This document shows positions 930 through 57,825 of a stretch of DNA of 64,000 nucleotides, one piece after another (the stretch's first letter is position 1; every line of letters starts with the position of its first letter). The notes under the pieces are model-generated. The model made no database searches, had not been told where the DNA came from, and saw only the letters and a program-made list of their open reading frames with translations. Position numbers and translations under genes: made by a program. The DNA comes from the human T2T-CHM13v2.0 reference genome, Homo sapiens, in NCBI RefSeq assembly GCF_009914755.1, contig NC_060928.1; one strand, written 5' to 3'.

Positions 930-1800
930 GTCATTTCTGTTTTAGGAACTTCTTTTAGCCACTCTTTTAGTATAGGTAAGCTGGTGAAAAATTCTCTTAG
1001 ATTTTCTTTGTCTCTAACAGTCTTTATTTCTTCTTCATTACTGGAGCATAATTTAGCACTGACAGTTCTTTTCTTTCAGCATTTAAATCATTGCCTCTGT
1101 GATTTCTGCAAGGAATTTGCTGCTATTAGAATTATTTTTTTCCAATAGATGAGGTGTCATTTCTTGCTGTGTTCAAGAGTTTGTCTTTAGTTTTCAGAAG
1201 TTTGATTATGTATCTTGGCATGGATTTCTTTGGGCTTATCCTGTTTGAGGTTTGCTCAGCTTTTTGAATATGTAGATTTATATCCTTTGTCAAGTTTGAG
1301 AAATTTTTGGTCATTATTTCTTAAAATACTCTTTCAGTCCCACCTTCTTTCTTCTTTCCTTCTGGAACTCTAACCACAGCAATGTTTACTCTTTTATTAT
1401 AGTCCCAGAGTTTCCTAAGCTTTTGTTTATTTTTTTTGCACTCTAGTTTCTCTCTGTTTTTGAGATTGGGTAATTTCAATGTATCTTCAAGTTTACTGAT
1501 TCTTTGCTCTGTCTTCTCTATTCTTATGTTAAGCCCATCCAGTGAGTTTTGAATTTTGCTTATCATATTTTTTAGTTCCAGGGTTTTTCTTTGTTTCTTC
1601 TTTTTATATTTACTATTTCTTTGTTGACACTTCCTATTTCTTTTCCTTTGTTTTAAACATGATGGTAATTGCTCATTGAGATGTATTTATGATGGCTGCT
1701 TTAAAATCTTTGTCAAATAATTTCAACATTTGTGTTATCTCAGTGTTGGTATCTGTTGATTGCCTTTTCTCATTCAAGTAAAAACTTTTATATTTCATTG
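930..1800 (-). mobile_element. Old L1M ORF1-region fragment
   Basis: Minus-strand ORFs 1132-1314 and 1321-1566 are degenerate ORF1p (LWDYNKRVNIAVVRVPEG; NFSNLTKDINLHIQKAEQT; PRYIIKLLK). Confidence 0.7.
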
Positions 1801-2762
1801 TATGATGACTGATATTCAGATATATGCTGAGCATCTAATTATTATTTATTCTGTTTTGTTGTTGTTGTTATATCATGCTTTTAAATTTATATTATTTTAT
1901 TTAATTAATTACTTTGCTTTTTCCAACTTTTATTTTAGGTTCAGAGGTTACATCTGCAGGATTGTTACATGGGTAAATTGTGTGTTGCTGGGGTTTGGTG
2001 TACAAATTATTTCATCATGCAGGTAGTAAGCATAATAACCAATAGGTAGTTTTTGGTTCTCATCCTCCTCCCACCCTCAACCCTCAAGTAAGCCCCAGTA
2101 TGTATTGTTCCTCTCTTTGTGTCCATATGTACTCAATGTTTAGCTTCCACTTATAAGTGAGAACATGAGGTATTTGGTTTTCTGTTCCTGCATTCATTTG
2201 CTTAGTATAATGGCCTGTGGCTGCATCCATATTGCTGCAAAAACCATGGTTTCATTTTGCTTTCTGGCTCCATAGCATTCCATGGGGTATATTTACCACA
2301 TTTTCTGTATCCAGTCCACTGTTGATGGACATTTTAGGTTGATTCCATGACTATTGTGACAATTGCTGCCATGAACATATGCATACATGTGTCTTTATGG
2401 CAGAACAATTTGTATTCCTTTGTGTATAATATACCCAGTAATGGGATTGCTGGGTCAAATTGTAGTTCTGTCTTAATTTCTTTGAGAAATCTCCAAGCTG
2501 CTTCCCACAGTGGCTGACCTAATTTACATTCCCACGAGCAGTGTATAAGCATTCCCTTTTCTCCACAACCTCAACAACATCTGTTGTTTTTTTGACTTTT
2601 TAGTAATAGCCATTCTGACTGGTTTGAGATGGTATCTTATTATGGTTTTTAATTTCCCATTTCCCTGATTAGTGATGTTGAGCATTTGTCCATATGTTTG
2701 TTGGCTGCTTGTGTGTCTTCATTTGAGAAGTGTCTGTTCCTGTCTGTATTAGGCTGTTCTTA

Positions 2763-3100
<338 letters not shown>

Positions 3101-3575
3101 CAATATTAGGTAATGTATAAAGAGAAAAGGTTTAATTGGCTTATGATTCTGCAGGCTTTATGGGCAGCATGGTGCTGGCATCTGCTCGGTTTCTAGGGAG
3201 GAAGCTTACAATCATGGCAGAAGGTGAAGTGTGAAATGGGAGGGAGCAGGTACATCACATGGTGAAAGCAGGAGCAAGAGGGATAGAGGTGCCATACACT
3301 TTTAAACAATCCGATCTCACAAGAGCTCACTCACTATTGCAAAGATAACTCCAAGCCGTGAGTGATTGGCTCCCATGACCTGAACACCTCCCACCAGGTC
3401 CTACCTTCAGCATTGGGGGTGACAAAGCAACATGAGATTTGGGCAGGGATAAATATCCAAATTATATCATTCTGCTCCTGGCCTCTCCCAAATCTCATGT
3501 CTTCTCACATTGCAAAATATAATTATGCCTTCCTAACAGTCCCCAAAAGTCTTAACTCATTCCGACTTTAACTCA

Positions 3576-24416: not shown

Positions 24417-26009
24417 AGCCCACCACAGCTCAGCAAGGCCACTGTGGCCAGACTGACTCTCTAGATTCCCTCCTCTCTGGGCAGAACATCTCTGAAAAAA
24501 AGGCAGCAGCCCCAGTCAGGGACTTATAGATAAAACCCCCACCTCCTGGGACAGAGCAGCTGGGGGAAGGGGTGGTTGTGGGCACAGCTTCAGCAGACTT
24601 AAATGTTCCTACCTGGCAGCTCTGAAGACAGCAGTGGATCTCCCAGCACAGCGTTCAAGCTCTGATAAGGGACAGCCTGCCTCCTCAAGTGGGTCACTGA
24701 CCCCCGTGTATCCTGACTGGGAGACACCTCCCAGTAGAGGCCGACAGACACCTCATACAGGAGAGCTCTGGCTGACATCTGGTGGGTGCTCCTCTGGGAC
24801 GAAGCTTCCAGAGGAAGGAACAAGCAGCAATTTTTGCTGTTCTGTAGCCTCCGCTAGTGATAGCCAGGCAAACAGGTTCTGGAGTGGACCTCCAGCAAAC
24901 TCCAGCAGACCTGCAGCAGAGGGCCCTGAATGTTAGAGGGAAAACTAACAAACAGAAAGGAATAGTATCAACATCAACAAAAAGGATGTCCACTCAGAGA
25001 CCCCATCGGAAAGTCACTGACTTCAAAGACCAAAGGTAGATAAATCCACGAAGATGGGGAGAAACAAGTGCAAAAAGGCTGAAAATCCAAAAACCAGAAT
25101 GCCTCCTCTCCTCCAAAGGATCACAACTCCTCACCAGCAAGGGAACAAAATGGGATGGAGAATGAGTTTGATGAATTGACAGAAGTAGGCTTCAGAAGGT
25201 GGGTAATAACAAACTCCTCCGAGCTAAAGGAGCATGTTCTAACCCAATGTAAGGAAGCTAAGAACCTTGAAAAAAGGTTAGATGAATTGCTAACTAGAAT
25301 AAACAGTTTAGAGAAGAGCATAAATGACCTGATAGAGCTGAAAAACACAGCAGGAGAACTTCATGAAGCATACGCAAGTATCAATAGCGAACCAATCAAG
25401 CAGAAGAAAGGATATCAGAGATTGAAGATCAACTCAATGAAATAAAGCAAGAAGACAAGATTAGAGCAAAAAGAGTGAAAAGAAAAGAACAAAGCATCCA
25501 AGAAATATAGGACTATGTGAAAAGACCAAATCTATGTGTGATTGGTGTACCTGAAAGTGATGGAGAGAATGGAACCAAGTTGGAAAACACTCTTCAGGAT
25601 ATTATCCAGGAGAACTTTCCCAACCTAGCAAGGCAGGCCAACATTCAAATTCAGGAAATACAGAGATCACCACAAAGATATTCCTGGAGAAGAGCAACCC
25701 CAAGACACATAATTGTCAGATTCACCAAGGTTGAAGTGAAGGAAAAAAATGTTAAGGGCAGCCATAGAGAAACGTTGGGTTACCCACAAAGGGAAGCCAA
25801 TCAGACTAACAGCAGATCTCTCTGCAGAAACCCTACAAGCCAGAAGAGAGTGGGGGCCAATATTCAACATTCTTAAAAAAATTTTCAACCCAGAATTTCA
25901 TATCCAGACAAACTAAGTTTCCTAAGCGAAGGAGAAATAAAATCCTTTACAGAAAAGGAAATACTGAGAGATTTTTGTCACCACCAGGCCTGCCCTACAA
26001 GAGCTCCTG
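24417..26009 (+). mobile_element. L1PA7-like fragment: partial 5'UTR plus disrupted ORF1
   Basis: ORF1p pieces 25155-25445 and 25517-25876 (KRPNLCVIGVPESDGENGTKLENTLQDIIQENFPNLAR). Ends abruptly at caagagctcctg, just before the ORF1 C-terminus. Confidence 0.88.
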
Positions 26010-26575
26010 CAGTAGTTTCTGCTGCCTTTTGTTCAGCTATGACCTGCCACCAGAGGTGGAGTCTGCAGAGATAGGCAGGGCTCCTTGAGCTGCAGTGGGC
26101 TCCACCCAGTTCGAGCTTCCTGGCTGCTTTGTTTACCTACTCAAGCCTCAGCAATGGCGAATGCCCCTCCCACAGCCAGTCTGCCACCTTGCAGTTCTAT
26201 CTCAGACTGCTGTGCTAGCAGTGAGCAAAGCTCTGTGGGCATGGGACCCGCTGAGCCAGGCACGGGATATAATCTCCTGGTGTGCTGTTTGCTGAGACCA
26301 TTGGAAAAGGTGGGAGTGTCCCAATTTTCCTGGTAGAGTCTGTCATGGCTTCCCCTGGCTAGGAAATGGAAATCCCCCAACTCCTTGCACTTCCAGGGTG
26401 AGGCGATGCCCTGCCCTGCTTCAGCTTGCCTTCTGTGGGCTGCACCCACTGCCCAACCAGTGCCAGTAGGATGAACCAGGTACCTCAGTTGAAAATGCAG
26501 AAATCACCCATCTTCTGCATTGATCATGCTGGGAGCTGCAGACCAGAGCTGTTCCTATTTGGCCATCTTGGTTCT
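26010..26575 (-). mobile_element. L1PA (about PA5/6) 5'UTR terminal ~560 bp only
   Basis: Ends gttcctatttggccatcttg, the reverse complement of the L1 start and YY1 site. Contains an ORF0-like frame at 26154-26336 on +. Confidence 0.85.
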
Positions 26576-26579
26576 TCAC

Positions 26580-27450
26580 TATAGACACGTTACAAAGGAA
26601 GATATACAAGCAGCCAACAAGCATATGAACAAAAAGATCAATATCACTGATCATTAGGGTAATGCAAATTGAAACCACAGTGAGATACCACTGATCATTA
26701 GATAAATGCAAATCAAAACCACAGTGAAATACTATTTCACACAAGTTAGAGTGGCTATAATTAGTCAAAAAATAGCAGATACTGGTGAGGTTGCAGAGAA
26801 AAGGGAACACTTATACACTGTTGGTGGGAGCGTAAATTAGTTCAACCATTGTGGAAAGAGGTGTGGTGATTACTCAAAAAGCTAAAAGCAGAACTACCAT
26901 TTGACCCAGCAGTCCTATTACTGGATATATGCCCAAAGGAATATATATCGTTCTACCATAAAGACACATGTACATTTATGTTCATTGCAGCACTGTTCAC
27001 AATAGCAAAGACATGGAATCAACCTAAATGCCCATCAATGGTAGACTGGATAAAGAATATGTGGTACATATACACCATGGGATGCTATGCAGCCATAAAA
27101 AAGAATGAGATCATGTCCTTTGCAGGAACATGGATGGAACTGGAGACCATCATCCTTAGCAAACTAACACAGGAACAGAAAACCAAATGCTGCATGTACT
27201 CACTTATGAGGGGGAGCTAACTGATGAGAACACATGGATGCAAAGAGACAACAGACATTGGGGTCTACTTGACGGTGGAGGGTTGGGGAGAAGAATAGGA
27301 TCAGAAAAAATAACTATTGGGTCCTAGGCTTTGTACCTGGGTGATGAAATAGTCTGCACAACAAACTCCCATGACAGGAGATCACCTATATTAGAAGCCT
27401 GCACTTTTACCCCTGAACCTAAACTATAAGTTTTTTTTTTAAAAAAATCT
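26580..27450 (+). mobile_element. Older L1PA (PA13-16-like) 3' end
   Basis: ORF2 C-terminus 26978-27220 (MFIAALFTIAKTWNQPKCPS) followed by 3'UTR and an A-rich tail. Confidence 0.85.
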
Positions 27451-30400
27451 TAAGAAAGAAACATAAAGTCAAAAGTTTTGTGAATATTATGTCAAAATTA
27501 TGTGCTTATCATTTTGCTGCTGTTCCTTTTTTAAAAATGCTTTTTTTTATCTCTCTGTAAAATAATGGTGTTCCCTTTCTAATGCAAACATACTTTCAGA
27601 TCCTAATCATTGGGGTAAACATTCTTTTTAAAACTATTGTTTACAAAAGTAAAAATCTGACTTTGTCCATGCAGATCATATATTGACAAGTATTTTTCAA
27701 CAACATAATTTTAACCTTATGACATCAGTTTTAATAGCAGTCATTACACTATTATTCCAGGTGATTCTGGGACACCTGAGTACTCTGTGTAATTGAAGTT
27801 ATCTGTAGCCACATTTAATATGACATGTTCAATGTTTGGTCTCACAAGCTCACTGCTTAGAGTCTTCTTCATCCACCCAATATTGAAGTAATGAAATGGC
27901 TGTTAATAGATTCATCACTGATCTCATTCTGCGACATCTTTATCAGAATAATATAAAATCAATGTAAGAAATTTGGTGAAATTATGAAAATTTAGGAAAA
28001 AATAAATTTCATTTATAAAATCTGTGTGATTTCATTATGGTTTTATTCTATTTATGTAACTCAAAGTACATATATTATGTTTACATAAAAATTTTTTATC
28101 TCATTGCATGTATCTTTTCTTCTGACACAAAAATTGTGATATTTTTCTGTTCATCATTTTGTTCCGTAGTATTCAACAATACCTGTACTATGGCTGACAG
28201 TGTAATTTAACATTTTTTGATAAAACAATTGTAATGGCATGGTACACACATTGTATACATTTTAAATCATTTCTCAATGTAAAATATTTGAATTGTCTCC
28301 AGTGTTTATTTTATGAATGTCTGCCACAAATATTGAATCTGACCATCGTGATTTAGTTGTTCTCTGTATAGTTTCATATGAGTATATTATGAAGCCAATG
28401 TCTATATGCATTTTTATAATACTTAATACTTTTCCCCAAGTGTCTGATTCTTTTAAAATATGCAATCATTATCTGAGAATCTAATACATAATGGAAAAGC
28501 AAGAAAATTTGTGACAAAAATTATTTTATGTAAGAAAGAAGTAGAGGACAGGCTGCACAACTATTGACCTGGATTCGAACCTACCTTCTGCAAATGAATA
28601 ACAACAGCTAGTATTAGTATTTATCACTATTGTTCTAATAGTCATTCTTGCCCTTGTCTTCCTTCTCCACCTACTCTCTTCCCCCTTCTAATGGCACCAT
28701 CACTTTCCTCTAATGTGAATGGGAAAAGTTTTTGAGAATAAGGTTAGAGTGCATAGAATTTTCATTGGTCTTACCTCTGCCTTTGTCCTTTGGGAAATTA
28801 CCACATAGAGCCTATGCAATTTTCATTCAACATAAACATTGAGTTTTAACTCAAGTAAGATTTCAGTTTTCTGTTGCTGCTTATAAGAAGGTAGACAAAA
28901 AGATCTCTTAAGGCTTATATAATAAAGTAGTGAGGAATGCTTGCTTCCTGCTTATGTCTCAAAAGAATAACATTAAAGTAAAATATATGAGGTTCTTTTG
29001 TTTCTTCGTAAGGAAGATCATCCTATATCCTGACAGAATTCTTTTGTAAATCTCAGTGTAGTTTTCAGATGCAAGTGGTAGACATTATTTGGATCTTATT
29101 ATACATGCATTGTTCATTTTTTTTTGGTGCTTCTCTGTCAGGCAGCTGTGATGATGAGTCCCAAGTTTCCCAGAGATTTTTACTGAGGTGTCCTATAGGC
29201 TTGGTATAAGGCAGAAAACATTGAAAGGGTAGGCTGACCCTTTTATGCTCTAAGATATAAACCTCTGTCATCTCACTGACTAATGTTTTAAATGCTAGAG
29301 TGAAAGCAAGTAAACATTGGCTTTGGCTGCGAATATTCTGGTGGCACACATTTATGTCGTTGAGGAATAGTGTACCTTGAAAAGCCTTAACCCTTACACC
29401 GTTAGCATTTCATCTTGTTCATCTGACTGCCCAAACATCTATATTTAAACAAATCCACAGGGGATCTGTTCTCTAGGACTTTGCTGGAGAACCTTGATGT
29501 GTCGGAAAACTGTTCCTATTAATAGAGGAATTATATCTCGAGTGGCTGGCATATGTTAACTAATGGATACTATTAATAGTAATAACAAAAATAAAAAATC
29601 ATTACAATATTACTACTATTTGAATCACTGACTATGTATGAGAGACATTATAAGTGTTTTATCTATGTTAAGTATATTTCCAACACGACACAATAGGAGG
29701 TAATTGCCATTATTATAGAAGTAGGCATAATTATCTCTATCAACATTCTAGTCCACTTTTCCATTATTATCTGTTGCATAAACTCATGCAAAATCTTCTA
29801 AATGATCTACACTTTTCACAATCTGGCCTTTTTGCGATGTAATCCATTGACAACATTGAGAGCGTTTTAAAGAAAGGGAATCTGATAATATCTCTCCATT
29901 TCTGAACTCTGTGCAGTAGCTCCCCTTTGCCCTTAATAGATACTTAGATCTCCTTATAGTTATATTGCTTCAACTTACCTCTCTAGCATCATCTGCTACT
30001 TTACTCAGCTTTTTCCTGCATACTAATTTGAAACCTTAGGCACTGCCTTTACTTCACTACCTGCTTTTCTTTTTGTGTTTTCCTCTCCCCCTCATCTTTT
30101 CATCTACTCCTAGACATTATTGAGGACTCACTTTATCAATGACTTTGAGATCTCTTCTACATGTTTCCTTAGCATTGTGACCTTATAACACTTTTAGACT
30201 TTTCCTTTTTACTTGCTTATAGTCTATCTTTCAAAGTACAACGTAAGGCATGAGGGAGCAGAAAGTGCCTACATTTCTTCTCTGAAAATCCAGCACTTAT
30301 CCGTGGTTTGTGCTGATCAATTCATAAATATTCCTTGAAGGAATGACTTATTTTTTTTTTTACATTGCACAATGAAGGCTTTCATTGAATCAACCCTGTT

Positions 30401-30612
30401 TTCAGAGTCTCTTTAGTATCCCTCTTTGATATTTAATGACACTAAAGTTTACACAGTTGTGATGATATAGCAACATATGAGTTTCTAATGGTAGGTCACT
30501 TTCTTTGACCTCCCGTATTTCTCTCACTGTGAGTCAAACACTCTGAATGAAAACATATCTGGCCATTCCTTCTGAAATGCAAAGCAAATAAATCAAACAT
30601 GAATACATTTAC

Positions 30613-30751
30613 CTTAGGCAGGGTTTTGGCTGGTTTACAGTGGAGTTCCCCCACAAAATCGACATTTGGTAAGGGTGGGTGAAGAAATTCAAAATCCCAG
30701 TACGTTTGAATGAGCCACACTTCAGCTTTCCCCATTGTCTCAAATAATGTA
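30613..30751 (-). pseudogene. UGT2B29P: UGT2B pseudogene exon 2 remnant, splice acceptor lost
   Basis: [46 protein letters not shown] followed by an AAG|GTAAAT donor. The first ~10 nt of the UGT2B exon 2 and its AG are absent. The symbol is inferred from the position between TMPRSS11E and UGT2B17. Confidence 0.88.
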
Positions 30752-31099
30752 CATTAATAAAATAAATATATACATATATTTTTATATATAAGCATAACAA
30801 TTTTATATATTGCATATTACTTATATATAAGGAAAGCAAAATGTTCAGATAATTAAGAGGAAATTACATATATTTTTTTCTTTTTCTTTTTTTTATTATA
30901 CTTTAAGTTTTAGGGTACATGTGCACATTGTGCAGGTTAGTTACATATGTATACATGTGCCATGCTGGTGCACTGCACCCACTAACTCGTCATCTAGCAT
31001 TAGGTATATCTCCCAATGCTATCCCTGCCCCCTGCCCCTACCCCACCACAGTCCCCAGAGTGTGATATTCCCCTTCCTGTGTCCATGTGATCTCATTGT

Positions 31100-45863: not shown

Positions 45864-46319
45864 TTTATGGCTACATAGTAATCCATGGTGTATACATACT
45901 GCACTTTCCTTATTCAGTCTATCATTGATGGACATTTAGGTTGATTTCATGTCTTTGCTATTGTGAATAGTGTTGTAATCAACATATACATGCATGTGTC
46001 TTTATAATAGAATGATTATATTCCTTTGGGTATATACCCAGTAATGGGATTGCTGGGTCAAATGGTATTTCTGTCATTAGGTCTTGGAACAGACAACCAA
46101 ATGCTGCATGTTCTCACTTACAAGTGGAAGCTAAATAATGAGAACACCTGGAACACATGAACAACACACACTGGGGCCTATTGGAGGGTAGAAGGTGGGA
46201 GGGGGGAGAGGATCAAGAAAAATAAGTAGTGGGTTCTGGGCTTAATACCTGGGTGATGACACATATTTGCCTATGTAACAAACTTGCACATGTACCCCTG
46301 AACTTAAAAGTTAAAAAAG
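45864..46319 (+). mobile_element. Short 5'-inverted (twin-primed) L1
   Basis: Antisense ORF2-end segment 45864-46085 joined to sense 3' end 46086-46319. TSD ttcattgactt at 45853-45863 and 46320-46330. Confidence 0.85.
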
Positions 46320-47463
46320 TTCATTGACTTAACATTATTGACTTAATAAATTATAATGTCCAATTTTCTAGTACAAGTAGCTTTTGTCATCTTTTTTATG
46401 TGATTGGCCATTTTTACTTCTGTGAATTGTCAATTCATATCCTTCATCTATTTTCATATTGGTCTGTTTGTCTTTTTGGTTGGTGATATATAATAGCTCT
46501 CATTGTACAAGGGATACCAGTCCTTTGTCTACGTATTGCAGGATAGGCTTGATGTAAATTACTTTAGGTTGGTATGCATGATGTAACAATATTATCTGCT
46601 ATGACACTATATTTATTCAATATTTCTTAAAAATGTTTCATTTATCTGGATACATTTTATAAAAATTCTGCTGCAATCTCTTCCAATAATTCCCTTAGCA
46701 TCAAAGTTTTAATTTATTTTTAGAATACATTCATGCCATAGGTCATAGAGTGGTTGTTGTGAGACTTGGATGATGGTCTTCTTGCCAATAAAGACACAAA
46801 GGTTTTTGTTAACCCATACTACTTTGATCACAAAGTGTTTCCTTGATGTGTAGCTTTTAGGAGGGCCTTGAGAATTCCTGAGATTTTATTATTTGCCATT
46901 TTTTGGGTAATTTTTGTGTTCTTGATATTATTACTGATTATGATTAGTTGCAATATGTTTACATTAAAAATGATTATCTTATTTTTAGTCATGCTAAATG
47001 ACTTATGTTTTCATATTAGTGTTATGGGATGAATAGAGCTACAGGCTTCTGTGGAAAGAGAGAAACATGAGACATCCTTATATAAAACAGGGTTATATAG
47101 AATAATGGTCACTTTTAACTGTCTTCTACAAACACATTCAGTTTCAGAAACATCTGTAAGGTAGCTCAATAATTCTGTGCCTTGTTTTGGAAGAAGTGAA
47201 CACATATATACATGTACAGTTGTGATAATCAAAATCGGTAAGTCCCCTTAAAGTGCTGGTTCTATATTATCACAACCTACAATTCAGGCATTTAATCCAC
47301 TATTAACGTTTAAAAATGACCGTGAAAGCAACCAGTTCACACTTTAGAAAAGTTCATGGGGAAAAGACAATTAGCTTGTGAACAAAGGTTTTCCCAAATA
47401 GTTAAATTTTGTAGTATTTGTCAGGTAGGAGTCATTCTATCTCTAATTTGTCATATATTGTGC

Positions 47464-47902
47464 TTTTGATCCTTGAACAACATGGAGGTTTGAACTGAAC
47501 CTCTGATTATATGCAGATTTTCTTTTGCCTCTGCCAGCCTGAGATAACAAAGCCAACTTCTCTTTCTCTTCCTCCTTTGCCTACTTAATGTGAATACATG
47601 AAGAAGAAAACCTTTGTGATGATCCACTTCCACTTAATAAATAGTAAACATATTTAACCTTCCTTGTGATTTTCTTAATAACATTTTCTTTTGTCTATCT
47701 TACTTTATTGTAAAACTATGGTATACAATACATATAGCATGCACAATATGTGTTAATTTACTGTTTATGTTATTGGTAAGGCTTCTGGCCAACAGTAAAC
47801 TATCTGTAGTTAAATTTTGTGGAGTCAAAAGTTATAAATGGCTTTTTGACGGTGTGATAGGAGAGATTTGCCCCTAGGTCCACTGCTGTTCACAGGTCAA
47901 CT
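47464..47902 (+). mobile_element. Tigger2a/MER28-like DNA transposon
   Basis: Inverted termini ttgatccttgaaca / tgttcacaggtcaa; body contains gatgatccacttccacttaa; about 440 bp. Orientation is nominal. Confidence 0.7.
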
Positions 47903-49318
47903 TTACTGCAAAATGATTTAAGTTGGCAGAAGCCAAATGCACTGCCATATTTTTTTAGAAAAGAGGTCATGTTGTAGCCGGATGCACATTAAGGACTAGC
48001 AGCATTACTTGTCTCCAAACCACAGAGGAATATGGTGGTCCCAGATTTTCAGTTTTGTTCCCCAACTCCATGTATCTGAGTCCCATTATTTTGCTCTTCA
48101 GGCCCTGAATTTGGCATAAAGTGTAGTAGAGGCGGACAGTGTCGTCTCCTGTGCATCACTGTTGTTTTGCGATGAAATTCTCAATGTGGTCAGCTGCTGC
48201 TGCTGCAGAAGTCGATTTTCTTCAAACACTGCCAAGAACATCTGACTTACATAGCATATTTTGATTTGATATTTATTCAAACTGAGCCTGCTTTTTTCTT
48301 TTTACAAGCTCTCTGAAACTGTTAAAAGTCTTCACTTTATAAACTATGTAGTTACCATGATCTTTATACTGTTGGTAAAGCAATGATTCACTTTCCCCGT
48401 GTCTTTCACCTCAGTTCTTTTCTTCCCTGTGTGAATTGTATCCATTTTGATCAAAGTGATTTTACTGAATACCAGGAGTTATCACCTCTCAAGTGTTGTT
48501 GGCAAGGAGACTGTTTTTGCCAGTTATCAGTGAATTATTAAATTCCAAAGTCCCATTTTGAGGGTCTGCTTTTTAGTGCCACTTGCCCAAGCTGCCATAG
48601 TCTATTTCTCTCAGAAAGCAAAGCCTGAGATAAGAATTAGTGTGCAATAACTAATTTGAGAAATGTTCTTAGGGTACAGGAGTAGGGGACAGGAAAGGGT
48701 GAAACAAGAAGGGAGAAAAGTCAGTACAAGAATGTGTTACCAAACTAATCATCACCGTGACTGTTGGGACTTAAGCTCATGTGGACCCAGTAGGAAGCTG
48801 TGTGGATGTAAGGCGTGATCATTAACCATCACTTTCTATTGTTCACACTGCCAGGTTATGCATATGTGAGTGAGGGCTAGCTGAGTTTCTTTGACGGTTC
48901 CATGAAGAGATGTTAAAGAAGACTGGTGCAGAAAATGAGAGACCTGTCCTATCAGAAGATGACTTTACAAAGCTCCTTGACACAGCAAAGGCTAGAGAAA
49001 AAAAAATTAGCTGAAAAATATGAGGTGCAACCTAATTTGATCAAATGTATTAGAGCTTTCTTTTTTCTTTTGTTTCATTTTCACAGTATATTACATTTCA
49101 TATGATTGAATACTGTAAATTTTCTCAGTTTTCTGATAAAGTTATGTCTGTGATACAGGAACTAGAAAGAAATTATTCAGGCAGATAGTGAGGGTGAGAG
49201 TCCTCGGTAAGGTTTTGTTTTAATAAAAAGCAGCTCCGCAAATCATTTCCTTGCTAACAAAAAGCAGCCTGAAAAATCAAGCTTCAAACATAGAGAAACA
49301 AGCTAAAAGCTTGCATAG

Positions 49319-50350
49319 GTAGGGAAAAGAAAGAGAGATCAGACTGTTACTGTGTCTATGTAGAAAGGGAAGACATAAGAGACTCCATTTTGAAAAAGAC
49401 CTGTACTTTAAACAATTGCTTTGCTGAGATGTTGTTAATTTGTAGCTTTGCCCCAGCCACTTTGCCCCAGCCACTTTGACCCAACCTGGAGCTCACAAAA
49501 ACATGTGTTGTATGAAATCAAGGTTTAAGGGATCTAGGACTGTGCAGGACATGCCTTGTTAACAAAATGTTTACAGGCAGTATACTTGGTAAAAGTCATC
49601 ACCATTCTCTAGTCTCAATAAACCAGGGGCACAATGCACTGCGGAAAGCCGCAGGGACCTCTGCCCTTGAAAGCTGGGTATTGTCCAAGGTTTCTCTCCA
49701 TGTGATAGTCTGAAATATGGCCTCATGGGATGAGAAAGACCTGGCTGTCCCCCAGCCTGACACCCGTAAAGGGTCTGTGCTGAGGTGGAGTAGTAAAAGA
49801 GGAAAGCCTCTTGCAGTCGAGATAGAGGAAGGCCACTATCTCCCGCCTGCCCCTGGGAACTGAATGTCTCAGTATAAAACCCGATTGTACATTTCTTCAA
49901 TTCTGAGATGAGAGAAAAAAACCACCCTATGGTGGGAGGTGAGACATGTTTGCAGCAATGCTGCCTTGTTATTTTTTACTCCACTGAGATGTTTGGGTGG
50001 AGAGAAACATAAATCTGGCTTACGTGCACGTCCAGTCATAGTACCTTCCCTTGAACTTAATTATGACATAGATTCTATTGCTCACATGTTTGTTGCTGAC
50101 CTTCTCCTTATTATCACCCTGCTCTCCTACTACATTCCTTCCTGCTGAAATAATGAAGATAATAATCAATAAAAACTGAGGGAACTCAGAGACCGGTGCT
50201 GGTGCAGATCCTTGGTATGCTGAGTGCTGGTCCACTGGGCCTACTGTTGTTTCTCTATATTTTGTCTCTGTGTCTCATTTCTCTTTCTCAGTCTCTCATC
50301 CCACCTGACTAGAAATACCCACAGGTGTGGAGGGTCAGGCCACCCCTTCA
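49319..50350 (+). mobile_element. HERV-K(HML-2) solo LTR, LTR5A-like
   Basis: gtagggaaaagaaagagagatcagactgttactgtgtct ... ggccaccccttca, about 1030 bp. TATAAAA at 49873-49879 and AATAAA at 50168-50173. Confidence 0.92.
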
Positions 50351-50444
50351 CTTGCTAACAAAAAGCAGCCTGAAAAATCAAGCTTCAAACATAGATAAAC
50401 AAGCTAAAAGCTTGCATAAGTAAATGCTGGCAACTGTGCCAATA

Positions 50445-51015
50445 ATTCCTCAAGGATCTAGAACTAGAAATACCATTTGACACAGCAATCCCATTACTGG
50501 ATATATACCCAAAGGATTCTAAATCATTCTACTATAAAGACACATGCACACATATGTTTATTGCAGCACTATTCACAATAGCAAAGACTTGGAGCCAACC
50601 CAAATGTCCATCAATGATAGACTGGATAAAGAAAACGTGGCACATATACACCATGGAATACTATGCATCCATAAAAAAGATGAGTTCATGTCCTTTGCAG
50701 GGACATGGATGAAGCTGGAAACCATCATTTTCAGCAAACTAACACAAGAACAGAAAACCAAACACCAATTGTTCTCACTCATAAGTGGGAGTTGAACAAT
50801 GAGATCACATAGACACAGGGAGGGGAACATCACACACTGGGGCCCGTTGGGGTGTGGGGGACTAGGGGAGGGATAGCATCAGGAGAAATATCTAATGGAG
50901 GTGATGGGTTGATGGTTGCAGCAAACCACTGTGGCACATGTATGCCTATGTAACAAAACTGCATATTCTGCACATGTACCCCAGAACTTAAAGTATAATT
51001 AAAAAAAAAAAAAAG
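50445..51015 (+). mobile_element. 5'-truncated L1PA 3' end
   Basis: ORF2 C-terminus, 3'UTR and poly-A (51001-51014) inserted inside the MER61-like LTR. Confidence 0.88.
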
Positions 51016-51499
51016 AAAGAAAAGGGATGGGATACCTTGAAGCCAGGTATATTCAACAGGGAGGTTCCCTCTTTCCTTTCCTTTGTCAACCACACGTGCA
51101 ATAAAGAAGCAGGCAACATGGCACTGGCCAGGTAGAGAAAGCATATGCATGATAGAAGATTAGGGTGGGGCAGCAAGCTTCTTCTTACACTATGTAAATG
51201 GCACCCCTGGTTCCACCAATCCTTTGGGCCCTATATAAATCAGACACTGCTTCCTCAAGCTTGTCTATAAAACCCAGTGCATTTCGCCATGGAACTAGAA
51301 GATCTATTTGGGATCACCTTTCTGCAGGAAAGAGAGCTATTCTCTTTTCTCTTTCTTTCCCCTATTAAACCTCCATTCTTAAACTCACTTCTCGTGTGTC
51401 CGTGTTTTCAGTTTCCCTGGAGTGAGATGATGAGTCTTGGGTATTTACCCCAGACAATGATGCTGCTTAACCTGTTACTTTTATTTATTCTTACTTTAA

Positions 51500-57825
<6,326 letters not shown>

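What the first reader, a model, noticed from the sequence alone, without database searches (positions are those of the whole stretch)
49250..50422. HERV-K LTR5A flanked by a 68-bp duplication instead of a 5-6 bp TSD
Seen: 49250-49317 and 50351-50418 are direct repeats (cttgctaacaaaaagcagcc...aagcttgcata, 67/68 identical) bracketing the LTR. The U5 end is a clean ...CCTTCA. The U3 end lacks its terminal T (ggtaggg, not tgtaggg) and shares GTA with the host LTR, whose other copy continues ataagtaaatg. Known: HML-2 integrase makes 5-6 bp TSDs, and only a few HML-2 loci with long TSDs have been reported. Inference: one end was joined by integrase and the other was rescued by microhomology-mediated strand invasion. 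The 68-bp repeats could also recombine and excise the LTR, mimicking an empty allele. I cannot tell whether this locus is already catalogued.
Basis: partly seen in the sequence, partly recalled or inferred. Interest (0 to 1): 0.8.

Follow-up and report, generated by a model that had tools for sequence, protein, structure and literature searches.

The report
Retroviral LTR flanked by 72-bp duplication

Summary
A published list has this element as HML2.LTR243, type LTR5A, about 14 My old.

The UGT2B15-side paralogue 110.8 kb away is an uninterrupted empty site with one copy of the segment. Eight other genomic copies of the host repeat also carry it once. All nine read ...GCATAGGTAAATG. So the G at 49318 is host sequence, not a mutated LTR base. 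The duplication is 69 nt plus a GTA shared by host and LTR, and the right copy later changed G to A.

The U5 end is a full-length ...CA with no homology at the junction. The U3 end has lost 1-4 nt. In a control set of 39 related LTRs, 34 have 5-6 bp duplications, none has a long one, and none starts with G.

This anatomy matches experimentally described one-ended integrations: integrase joins one end, host enzymes join the other, which is truncated, shows short homology and carries a long duplication. Long duplications are published for LTR5_Hs loci, but that survey excluded LTR5A.

Verdict: real, new member of a known kind, moderate interest.

The parts
49147..49249 (+). Start of the host interspersed-repeat fragment, upstream of the duplicated part. 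The family element is about 640-650 bp in other copies.
   Evidence: about 40 scored genomic copies match window 49151-49321 at 83-90% identity (996 candidates); pairwise matches among 8 copies start at the equivalent point and run about 640-650 bp. The family name was not tested.
49250..49318 (+). Left copy of the duplicated target, the 69 nt that are unambiguously host. It carries one derived change (T>G at repeat position 46, window 49295).
   Evidence: Position 69 is G, as in 9 of 9 outgroup copies. Position 46 is T in 9 of 9 outgroups, G here.
49319..49321 (+). GTA shared by the host sequence (GGTAAATG) and the LTR start (TGTAGGG). This is the microhomology at the aberrant U3 junction.
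   Evidence: host copies read GGTA at repeat positions 69-72 (9 of 9); most relatives begin TGTAGGG (4 to 7 of 39, depending on the position, differ at positions 2-7); 0 of 39 non-self hits align to query position 1.
49322..50350 (+). Body of the solo HML-2 LTR (type LTR5A in the published list), ending in the intact U5 ...CCACCCCTTCA.
   Evidence: 39 non-self hits at 92-96% identity over positions 2-1033. HML2.LTR243, chr4 +, span 1032, LTR5A, 14.1 My; 37 of 38 relatives end in CA.
50351..50422 (+). Right copy of the duplicated target (72 nt). It carries one derived change (G>A at repeat position 69, window 50419).
50423..50444 (+). Remainder of the host repeat fragment, up to where L1-like sequence begins.
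   Evidence: family copies continue AATGCTGGCAGCTGTGCCAATA and then diverge from the window. The NCBI mask starts at 50441 (hub table). The paralogue shares this junction.

Best explanation
This is a fossil of a one-ended (aberrant) retroviral integration. About 14 My ago linear DNA of an HML-2 virus of the LTR5A group entered a germ-line chromosome on the UGT2B17 side of the UGT2B15/17 duplication. Integrase processed the U5 end to ...CA and joined it to the top strand immediately before CTTGCT (window 50350|50351). The U3 end was not joined by integrase. It lost at least its terminal T. Its 3' strand paired through GTA with the target 69-72 nt downstream of the first join and was extended or ligated by host repair enzymes. 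Filling the two single-stranded stretches copied the 69-72 nt between the joins onto both sides. LTR-LTR recombination later reduced the provirus to a solo LTR, and each target copy then acquired one substitution. Shown: both junction sequences, the duplication, its single-copy state elsewhere, and the normal pattern in relatives. Inferred: which enzyme made which join, the host pathway, the former provirus, and the date.
For: (1) The duplication is real and abuts both LTR ends. (2) It is tied to this LTR. The paralogue at C4:72.080 Mb aligns without interruption across the site. Window 48055-49321 and 50347-51913 both align to it, and paralogue bases 1648-1721 are used twice. The paralogue and 8 family copies each hold the 72-mer once (9 of 9). 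(3) The ends are asymmetric. U5 ends in CA like 37 of 38 relatives, with no shared base at the junction. U3 lacks the T that 37 of 39 relatives have, and none has G. The G at that place is the host base in 9 of 9 outgroups, which leaves a 3-nt GTA overlap. (4) Control survey of the 39 closest relatives. Normal 5-6 bp duplications were exact in 23 by script. Four further copies of one acrocentric locus are exact when read by eye, and 7 have one mismatch. None of the 39 has a long in-register flank repeat, apart from one low-complexity flank. (5) PMC5041404 (Discussion read; passages) describes the same product in ASLV and HIV-1 vectors: one normal end, the other often truncated, usually a short homology at the aberrant junction, and most commonly a large duplication of host DNA. 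(6) Timing is compatible. The two copies differ at 2 of 72 sites, one derived change each. The published age of the LTR is 14.1 My.
Against: No orthologous pre-integration allele was seen, because no primate or pangenome data are in the tools. The empty site is a paralogue, and it could in principle have lost an LTR by recombination between the repeats. Flank divergence between the paralogues is 4-8%. At the published LTR-pair rates that gives about 9-33 My, which overlaps the LTR age, so the clock does not fix the order of duplication and insertion. Three nucleotides of homology arise by chance about 1 time in 64. Terminal substitutions do occur in relatives (CC, CG and TA starts in L047, L051, L052), so a T>G change cannot be excluded outright. 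The solo LTR hides whatever the original proviral ends looked like. The host pathway (priming and recombination versus end joining) cannot be read from the product.
Confidence: 0.72

Rival explanations
1. Integrase joined both ends, but in two uncoupled half-site reactions 68 nt apart. The LTR's first T later mutated to G.
For: Both ends would then be essentially full length. Terminal substitutions exist in relatives: 3 of 39 have a changed first dinucleotide.
Against: It needs two coincidences. The host must already read GTA at the three bases matching LTR positions 2-4 (about 1/64). The T must then change to exactly the host's G, whereas 0 of 39 relatives have G at position 1 and both changes seen there are T>C. 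The fixed geometry of the integrase complex, which sets the short duplication length (PMC5041404 Background passage), does not predict a 68-nt stagger.
Confidence: 0.08
2. Pseudo-TSD: the flanking repeats come from later rearrangement, not from the insertion. Possible routes are a pre-existing tandem duplication, recombination between two LTRs inserted 70 nt apart on homologues or paralogues, or a template-switch duplication after a normal integration.
For: PMC5488345 (Discussion read) proposes such a model for long HML-2 duplications in segmentally duplicated DNA. This locus lies in a large segmental duplication.
Against: No trace of a normal 5-6 bp duplication at the LTR borders: the last bases of the left flank and the first of the right flank do not match. 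The tandem state is absent from the paralogue and from 8 family copies. Repeat borders coincide to the base with the LTR ends. Two independent same-orientation insertions 70 nt apart would also leave an intact TG, which is not seen.
Confidence: 0.07
3. Integrase-independent capture: viral DNA was pasted into a staggered chromosome break wholly by host repair, as in the published non-classical HML-2 insertions.
For: Microhomology and loss of viral bases at the U3 junction. The review PMC10742618 (section 6 passages) describes microhomology-mediated HML-2 insertions.
Against: Those insertions lack both viral ends, have no target duplication and delete target DNA. Here the U5 end stops exactly at CA with no junctional homology and the target is duplicated.
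Confidence: 0.08

Closest known systems
Long target-site duplications at HERV-K(HML-2) LTR5_Hs loci (Kahyo et al. 2017, PMC5488345; Mamedov et al. as cited there)
   Same: HML-2 LTR or provirus bracketed by direct repeats of tens to hundreds of bp (13-450 bp at 8 loci, Table 2 passage). A single copy is present at the pre-integration site where that was determined. The authors raise the same concern that the repeats could recombine and imitate an empty allele.
   Different: That survey covered LTR5_Hs/LTR5 only and says LTR5A and LTR5B were left out. This locus is older (14 My in the published list). In the parts I read, the authors left the mechanism open and did not analyse the state of the viral ends. 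Here the junctions show one intact and one truncated end with microhomology.
Experimental one-ended (aberrant) integrations of ASLV/RSV and HIV-1 vectors (Hughes laboratory; Varadarajan et al. 2016, PMC5041404, citing Oh et al. 2006, 2008)
   Same: One junction normal. The other viral end is often truncated, usually with a short homology to the appended host DNA. Most commonly the flanking host DNA is duplicated well beyond the normal length.
   Different: Those are somatic events in culture provoked by mutant ends, inhibitors or weakened integrase, with duplications often of hundreds to thousands of bp. This is a fixed germ-line event of a betaretrovirus-like ERV with a 69-72 nt duplication and an unknown trigger. 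I could not read the original ASLV papers or the 2013 HIV paper (not held).
Non-classical (double-strand-break repair) HML-2 insertions, as reviewed in PMC10742618
   Same: Host repair joins viral DNA through 1-7 bp microhomologies.
   Different: Those lack both viral ends, have no duplication and delete target DNA. Here only the U3 end is affected, the U5 end is canonical and the target is duplicated.

Membership tests
HERV-K(HML-2) LTR, subgroup LTR5A (solo LTR) | Full-length sequence similarity to other LTRs of the subgroup | tested here: met
   39 non-self hits at 92-96% identity over positions 2-1033 of 1033. Lengths of relatives are 1014-1040.
HERV-K(HML-2) LTR, subgroup LTR5A (solo LTR) | Assignment to LTR5A rather than LTR5B or LTR5_Hs | tested here: inconclusive
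   The published list gives HML2.LTR243, chr4 + 69393957-69394989 (hg19), span 1032, type LTR5A. My mapping to the window uses UGT2B17 coordinates recalled from memory and predicted 69,393,961; strand and span agree. The paper defines LTR5A by an insertion near consensus position 135. A 14-nt tandem array sits at LTR positions 129-170 and is shared by 38 of 39 relatives, but I had no LTR5B or LTR5_Hs copies to compare.
HERV-K(HML-2) LTR, subgroup LTR5A (solo LTR) | TG...CA termini | tested here: not met
   CA is present at 50349-50350. The 5' TG is replaced by GG, where the G is host sequence. This is loss of the terminal base at insertion, not a sign of a different family.
HERV-K(HML-2) LTR, subgroup LTR5A (solo LTR) | 5-6 bp target-site duplication | tested here: not met
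   69-72 nt instead. Relatives: 34 of 39 have 5-6 bp with at most one mismatch (with 4 read by eye). This is the anomaly under study.
Long-TSD HML-2 insertions (Mamedov; Kahyo) | Direct repeats over 10 bp abutting both ends of the element | tested here: met
   72 nt, 70 identical, flush with both ends.
Long-TSD HML-2 insertions (Mamedov; Kahyo) | The repeated segment is single-copy at the pre-integration site | tested here: inconclusive
   Single copy in the UGT2B15-side paralogue and in 8 of 8 family copies.
One-ended (aberrant) retroviral integration | One virus-host junction of normal form (processed CA end, no homology) | tested here: met
   The U5 junction is ...CCCCTTCA|CTTGCT. The host base before the target is C, the viral last base is A.
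One-ended (aberrant) retroviral integration | Other viral end truncated and joined at a short homology | tested here: met
   1-4 nt missing and a GTA overlap. Relatives start TGTA.
One-ended (aberrant) retroviral integration | Large duplication or deletion of flanking host DNA | tested here: met
   69-72 nt duplication.
One-ended (aberrant) retroviral integration | Direct evidence that integrase made only one of the two joins | not testable with these tools
   This can only be inferred from junction anatomy in a 14-My-old fossil.
Non-classical (DSB-repair) HML-2 insertion | Both viral ends missing, no target duplication, target deletion | tested here: not met
   The U5 end is complete and the target is duplicated, not deleted. 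Definition from PMC10742618 passages.

The most novel reading that the evidence does not exclude
Long-TSD endogenous retroviruses as a class are germ-line fossils of one-ended integrase events. If so, every such locus should show this asymmetry: one canonical CA/TG end, and one trimmed end sitting in a microhomology. The fraction of such loci would estimate how often natural, drug-free retroviral integration fails at one end. The published figure is 8 of 451 for LTR5_Hs. Here it is 1 of the 40 LTRs looked at, a set built around this locus. The same process should also have left deletions at other ERV borders. At this locus the 72-nt repeats and the surrounding common UGT2B17 deletion could both yield LTR-free haplotypes that imitate a pre-integration allele.
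Probability: 0.45. Interest if true: 0.5.

Novelty: new member of a known kind. Interest (0 to 1): 0.35.

Why it matters
The published survey of long HML-2 duplications left their origin open and offered rearrangement as an alternative (PMC5488345). This locus has junctions clean enough to link that class to the one-ended integration products seen in cell culture. It has an intact U5 end, a trimmed U3 end in a 3-nt overlap, and an internal control in the paralogous empty site. It extends the class to the older LTR5A group, which that survey skipped. There is also a practical point. The LTR lies inside the interval bounded by the 4.9-kb repeats that fit the common 117-kb UGT2B17 deletion. A 92-96% identical empty paralogue lies 110.8 kb away. 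Genotyping this LTR by PCR or short reads could therefore easily report a false empty allele.

Tried and rejected
- Secondary structure of the 72-nt target as single-stranded DNA: -7.5 kcal/mol, z = -1.1 against shuffles. There is no sign that a hairpin set the second join.
- Tandem Repeats Finder around the site: only a 14-nt array inside the LTR, which 38 of 39 relatives share. It is a family trait, not part of the event.
The survey stays at 39, which are the most similar copies and not a random sample.
I only showed that it is an interspersed element of about 640-650 bp with many copies.
- Original ASLV and 2013 HIV papers: not held. I rely on their description in PMC5041404.
- Prior description of this locus's long duplication: searches found none. 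Subramanian et al. 2011 lists the LTR but its main text has 0 mentions of target-site duplication. Subscription journals, including Mamedov et al. 2004, are not in the library, and I did not open the spreadsheet supplement of PMC5488345.
- Assembly artefact: unlikely, since the hg19-based list gives the same span.

Full report
**1. The observation.**
The sequence and the repeat finder (family D1) show a direct repeat at window 49250-49321 and 50351-50422. It is 72 nt long, 97% identical, with 1101 nt from start to start. The only two differences in the 72 nt are at repeat positions 46 (G left, T right) and 69 (G left, A right). The left copy runs straight into GGTAGGGAAAAG. The right copy starts directly after ...GCCACCCCTTCA. 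Other direct repeats in the surrounding 4 kb are 14-25 nt at 68-85% identity, so this one is not a chance match.

**2. What the insert is.**
I searched the window's own assembly with 49318-50350. This gave 39 non-self hits at 92-96% identity out of 40 scored (1500 candidates). None of them aligns to query position 1. Read at their ends, most relatives begin TGTAGGG and end CCCCTTCA, with a few changed bases at either end.

The supplementary list of Subramanian et al. 2011 (PMC3228705, file 1, row 244) has HML2.LTR243. It is on chr4, + strand, at 69393957-69394989, span 1032, type LTR5A, age 14.1 My (12.31-15.92), with no comment. From UGT2B17 coordinates that I recall from memory, I had predicted hg19 69,393,961 for the LTR start. 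Strand and span (49319-50350 = 1032 nt) agree. So the element is a catalogued LTR5A solo LTR. The main text of that paper never mentions target-site duplications (0 occurrences).

**3. What the target is.**
The flank belongs to an interspersed repeat. It has 996 candidates in the genome. The 38 scored hits other than the window itself and its paralogue match window 49151-49321 at 83-90%. Pairwise comparison of 8 copies gives an element of about 640-650 bp that starts near window 49147-49151. The window holds only its first ~197 bp, ending at 50444 where L1-like sequence begins. I could not test the name MER61.

**4. Is the duplication tied to the LTR?**
One hit differs from the rest. C4:72079945-72080165 is 94% identical and also covers the unique sequence upstream of the repeat. 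BLAST of the region against it aligns window 48055-49321 to paralogue 453-1721 (95.8%) and window 50347-51913 to paralogue 1648-3221 (92.0%). Paralogue bases 1648-1721 are used by both alignments. The paralogue is therefore an uninterrupted site without the LTR and with one copy of the segment.

The paralogy covers window 28.7-63.5 kb at 90-96%. The offset is 109.4 kb at the UGT2B17 3' exon, the spacing I recall for UGT2B15. The paralogue and the 8 family copies each hold the 72-mer exactly once (9 of 9).

**5. Polarising the differences.**
In the alignment, all 9 outgroup sequences have T at position 46 and G at position 69, and all read GGTA at 69-72. Each copy therefore carries one derived change: left T>G at 49295, right G>A at 50419. 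The ancestral target read ...GCATAGGTAAATG.

The G at 49318 is host sequence, not a mutated first base of the LTR. The duplicated host segment is 69 nt for certain. The next three bases, GTA, belong equally to host (GGTAAATG) and LTR (TGTAGGG). The LTR has lost 1-4 nt at its U3 end.

**6. Control survey.**
I examined the 39 relatives for which I held flanks: 29 and 10 fetched. They are the most similar copies, not a random sample. They are also not all independent. L015/L019 share flanks, as do L033/L034/L035/L049. The script gave these results:

| Class | Count | Notes |
|---|---|---|
| Exact 5-bp duplication | 15 | |
| Exact 6-bp duplication | 8 | |
| 6 bp with one mismatch | 9 | 4 are the acrocentric locus; the script set the LTR start one base late, and by eye they have an exact 5-bp CTCAC |
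| 5 bp with one mismatch | 2 | |
| None | 4 | L021, L037, L032, L050; the last two follow a purine-rich tract, which I read as the polypurine tract of a provirus (an inference) |
| Not assessable | 1 | L053, truncated |

Long in-register flank repeats occur in 0 of 39. The one exception is L024, whose flanks are CTTTT low-complexity sequence. Position 1 is T in 37 of 39, C in 2 (L047, L051) and G in none. The last two bases are CA in 37 of 38 (L048 has CC).

**7. Mechanism.**
The U5 junction is what integrase makes. It is a full-length end stopping at CA, joined with no shared base: the host has C before CTTGCT and the virus ends in A. The U3 junction is not what integrase makes, because the terminal base is gone and the join lies in a 3-nt overlap.

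Varadarajan et al. 2016 (PMC5041404) describe this product in ASLV and HIV-1 vectors (passages, Discussion read). One end is inserted by integrase. The other is inserted by host enzymes and is often truncated. There is usually a short homology to the appended DNA. Most commonly the flanking host DNA is duplicated far beyond the normal length.

In their model the free viral 3' end primes on nearby host DNA and recombination completes the join. A join on one side of the first insertion gives a deletion, and on the other side a duplication. Applied here, the bottom-strand 3' end of U3, trimmed by at least one base, pairs with GTA 69-72 nt downstream of the U5 join. The interval between the joins ends up on both sides.

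The structure is shown. The assignment of enzymes, the pathway and the former full provirus are inferred. I put this reading at 0.72.

**8. Rivals.**
- **Two uncoupled integrase joins 68 nt apart plus a later T>G change.** This needs the host to match LTR positions 2-4 by chance (about 1/64). It also needs a change to exactly the host base, a state seen in 0 of 39 relatives. Confidence 0.08.
- **Pseudo-TSD by rearrangement**, the alternative raised in PMC5488345. No short duplication remains at the borders. No tandem state is seen in 9 outgroup copies. The repeat ends coincide with the LTR ends to the base. Confidence 0.07.
- **Wholly integrase-independent capture**, like the non-classical HML-2 insertions reviewed in PMC10742618. 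Those lack both ends, lack duplications and delete target DNA. Here U5 is canonical and the target is duplicated. Confidence 0.08.

**9. Weak points.**
- The empty site is a paralogue, not an orthologue. A single copy could also arise by recombination between the two repeats.
- Flank divergence between the paralogues is 4.2-8%. At the pair rates of 0.24-0.45% per My used by Subramanian et al., that gives roughly 9-33 My, which overlaps the 14-My age of the LTR. The clock alone therefore does not order the events.
- The 2 differences in 72 nt between the copies give about 6-12 My at the same rates, with a very wide error. That is compatible with the LTR age but not informative.

**10. Comparison with the literature and novelty.**
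- Kahyo et al. 2017 (PMC5488345; abstract, passages and Discussion read) list 8 LTR5_Hs loci with flanking repeats over 10 bp (13-450 bp) among 451 estimated duplications. Supplementary figure S4 gives the total of 451.
- They credit Mamedov et al. with the first three of these loci.
- None of the listed loci is at this position.
- My searches found no description of this locus's duplication. Subscription journals are outside the library, and I did not open that paper's spreadsheet supplement.

The finding is therefore a new member of a known kind. The phenomenon and a tested mechanism both exist in print. What is added is an LTR5A example whose junctions and paralogous control tie the two literatures together.

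**11. Context noticed on the way.**
Window 26007-30871 matches C4:72063255-72068126 over 4884 aligned bases at 95.0%, with an offset of 117,248. [quoted passage not shown] The 4.9-kb size of those duplications is my recollection. If these are the recombining repeats, the LTR (49.3-50.4 kb) lies inside the deleted interval, and the empty paralogue at 72.080 Mb lies outside it. On deletion haplotypes only the LTR-free paralogue would remain. This is a second way, besides recombination between the 72-nt repeats, to get an apparent empty allele.

Noticed in passing
window 26007-30871 and L054/L041 (C4:72063255-72068126): A 4884-bp aligned block at 95.0% identity with an offset of 117,248 bp. Size and spacing fit the published 117-kb UGT2B17 deletion mediated by flanking duplications (passage in PMC13702348). 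The LTR and UGT2B17 lie between the two blocks, and the empty paralogue lies beyond the distal one.
   Followed up: partly
window 28743-63534 versus C4:72066001-72092979: Large paralogy between the UGT2B17 side and the UGT2B15 side at 90-96% identity. It is interrupted in the window by a 6-kb L1-rich stretch (30.9-36.9 kb) that matches other places.
   Followed up: partly
window 47452-48054: About 600 bp present in the window but absent from the paralogue: blocks 46126-47451 and 48055-49321 abut at paralogue position 72078897. It is another insertion or deletion since the duplication. Its nature was not examined.
   Followed up: no
L047 (C1:152225059-152226085), L051 (C22:17735855-17736889), L052 (C19:21758717-21759731): LTR5A-type relatives whose first dinucleotide is CC, CG or TA instead of TG, yet with exact 6-, 5- and 5-bp target duplications. 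These are ordinary substitutions at the LTR tip.
   Followed up: partly
L021 (C4:107482202-107483228), L037 (C4:42968999-42970029): Apparent solo LTRs of the same group with intact TG...CA ends but no recognisable 5-6 bp duplication. They may be products of recombination between different proviruses, or of insertions with target deletion.
   Followed up: no
window 49446-49487: A 14-nt tandem array (2.7 copies) inside the LTR, shared in 2-3 copies by 38 of 39 relatives. It lies where Subramanian et al. place an LTR5A-specific insertion, near consensus position 135.
   Followed up: partly
window 50531-51018 and 51503-52000: L1-like segments in inverted orientation (arms of 38-120 nt at 77-97% complementarity, pairs I1-I6) just downstream of the LTR. 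The paralogue has the same arrangement.
   Followed up: no
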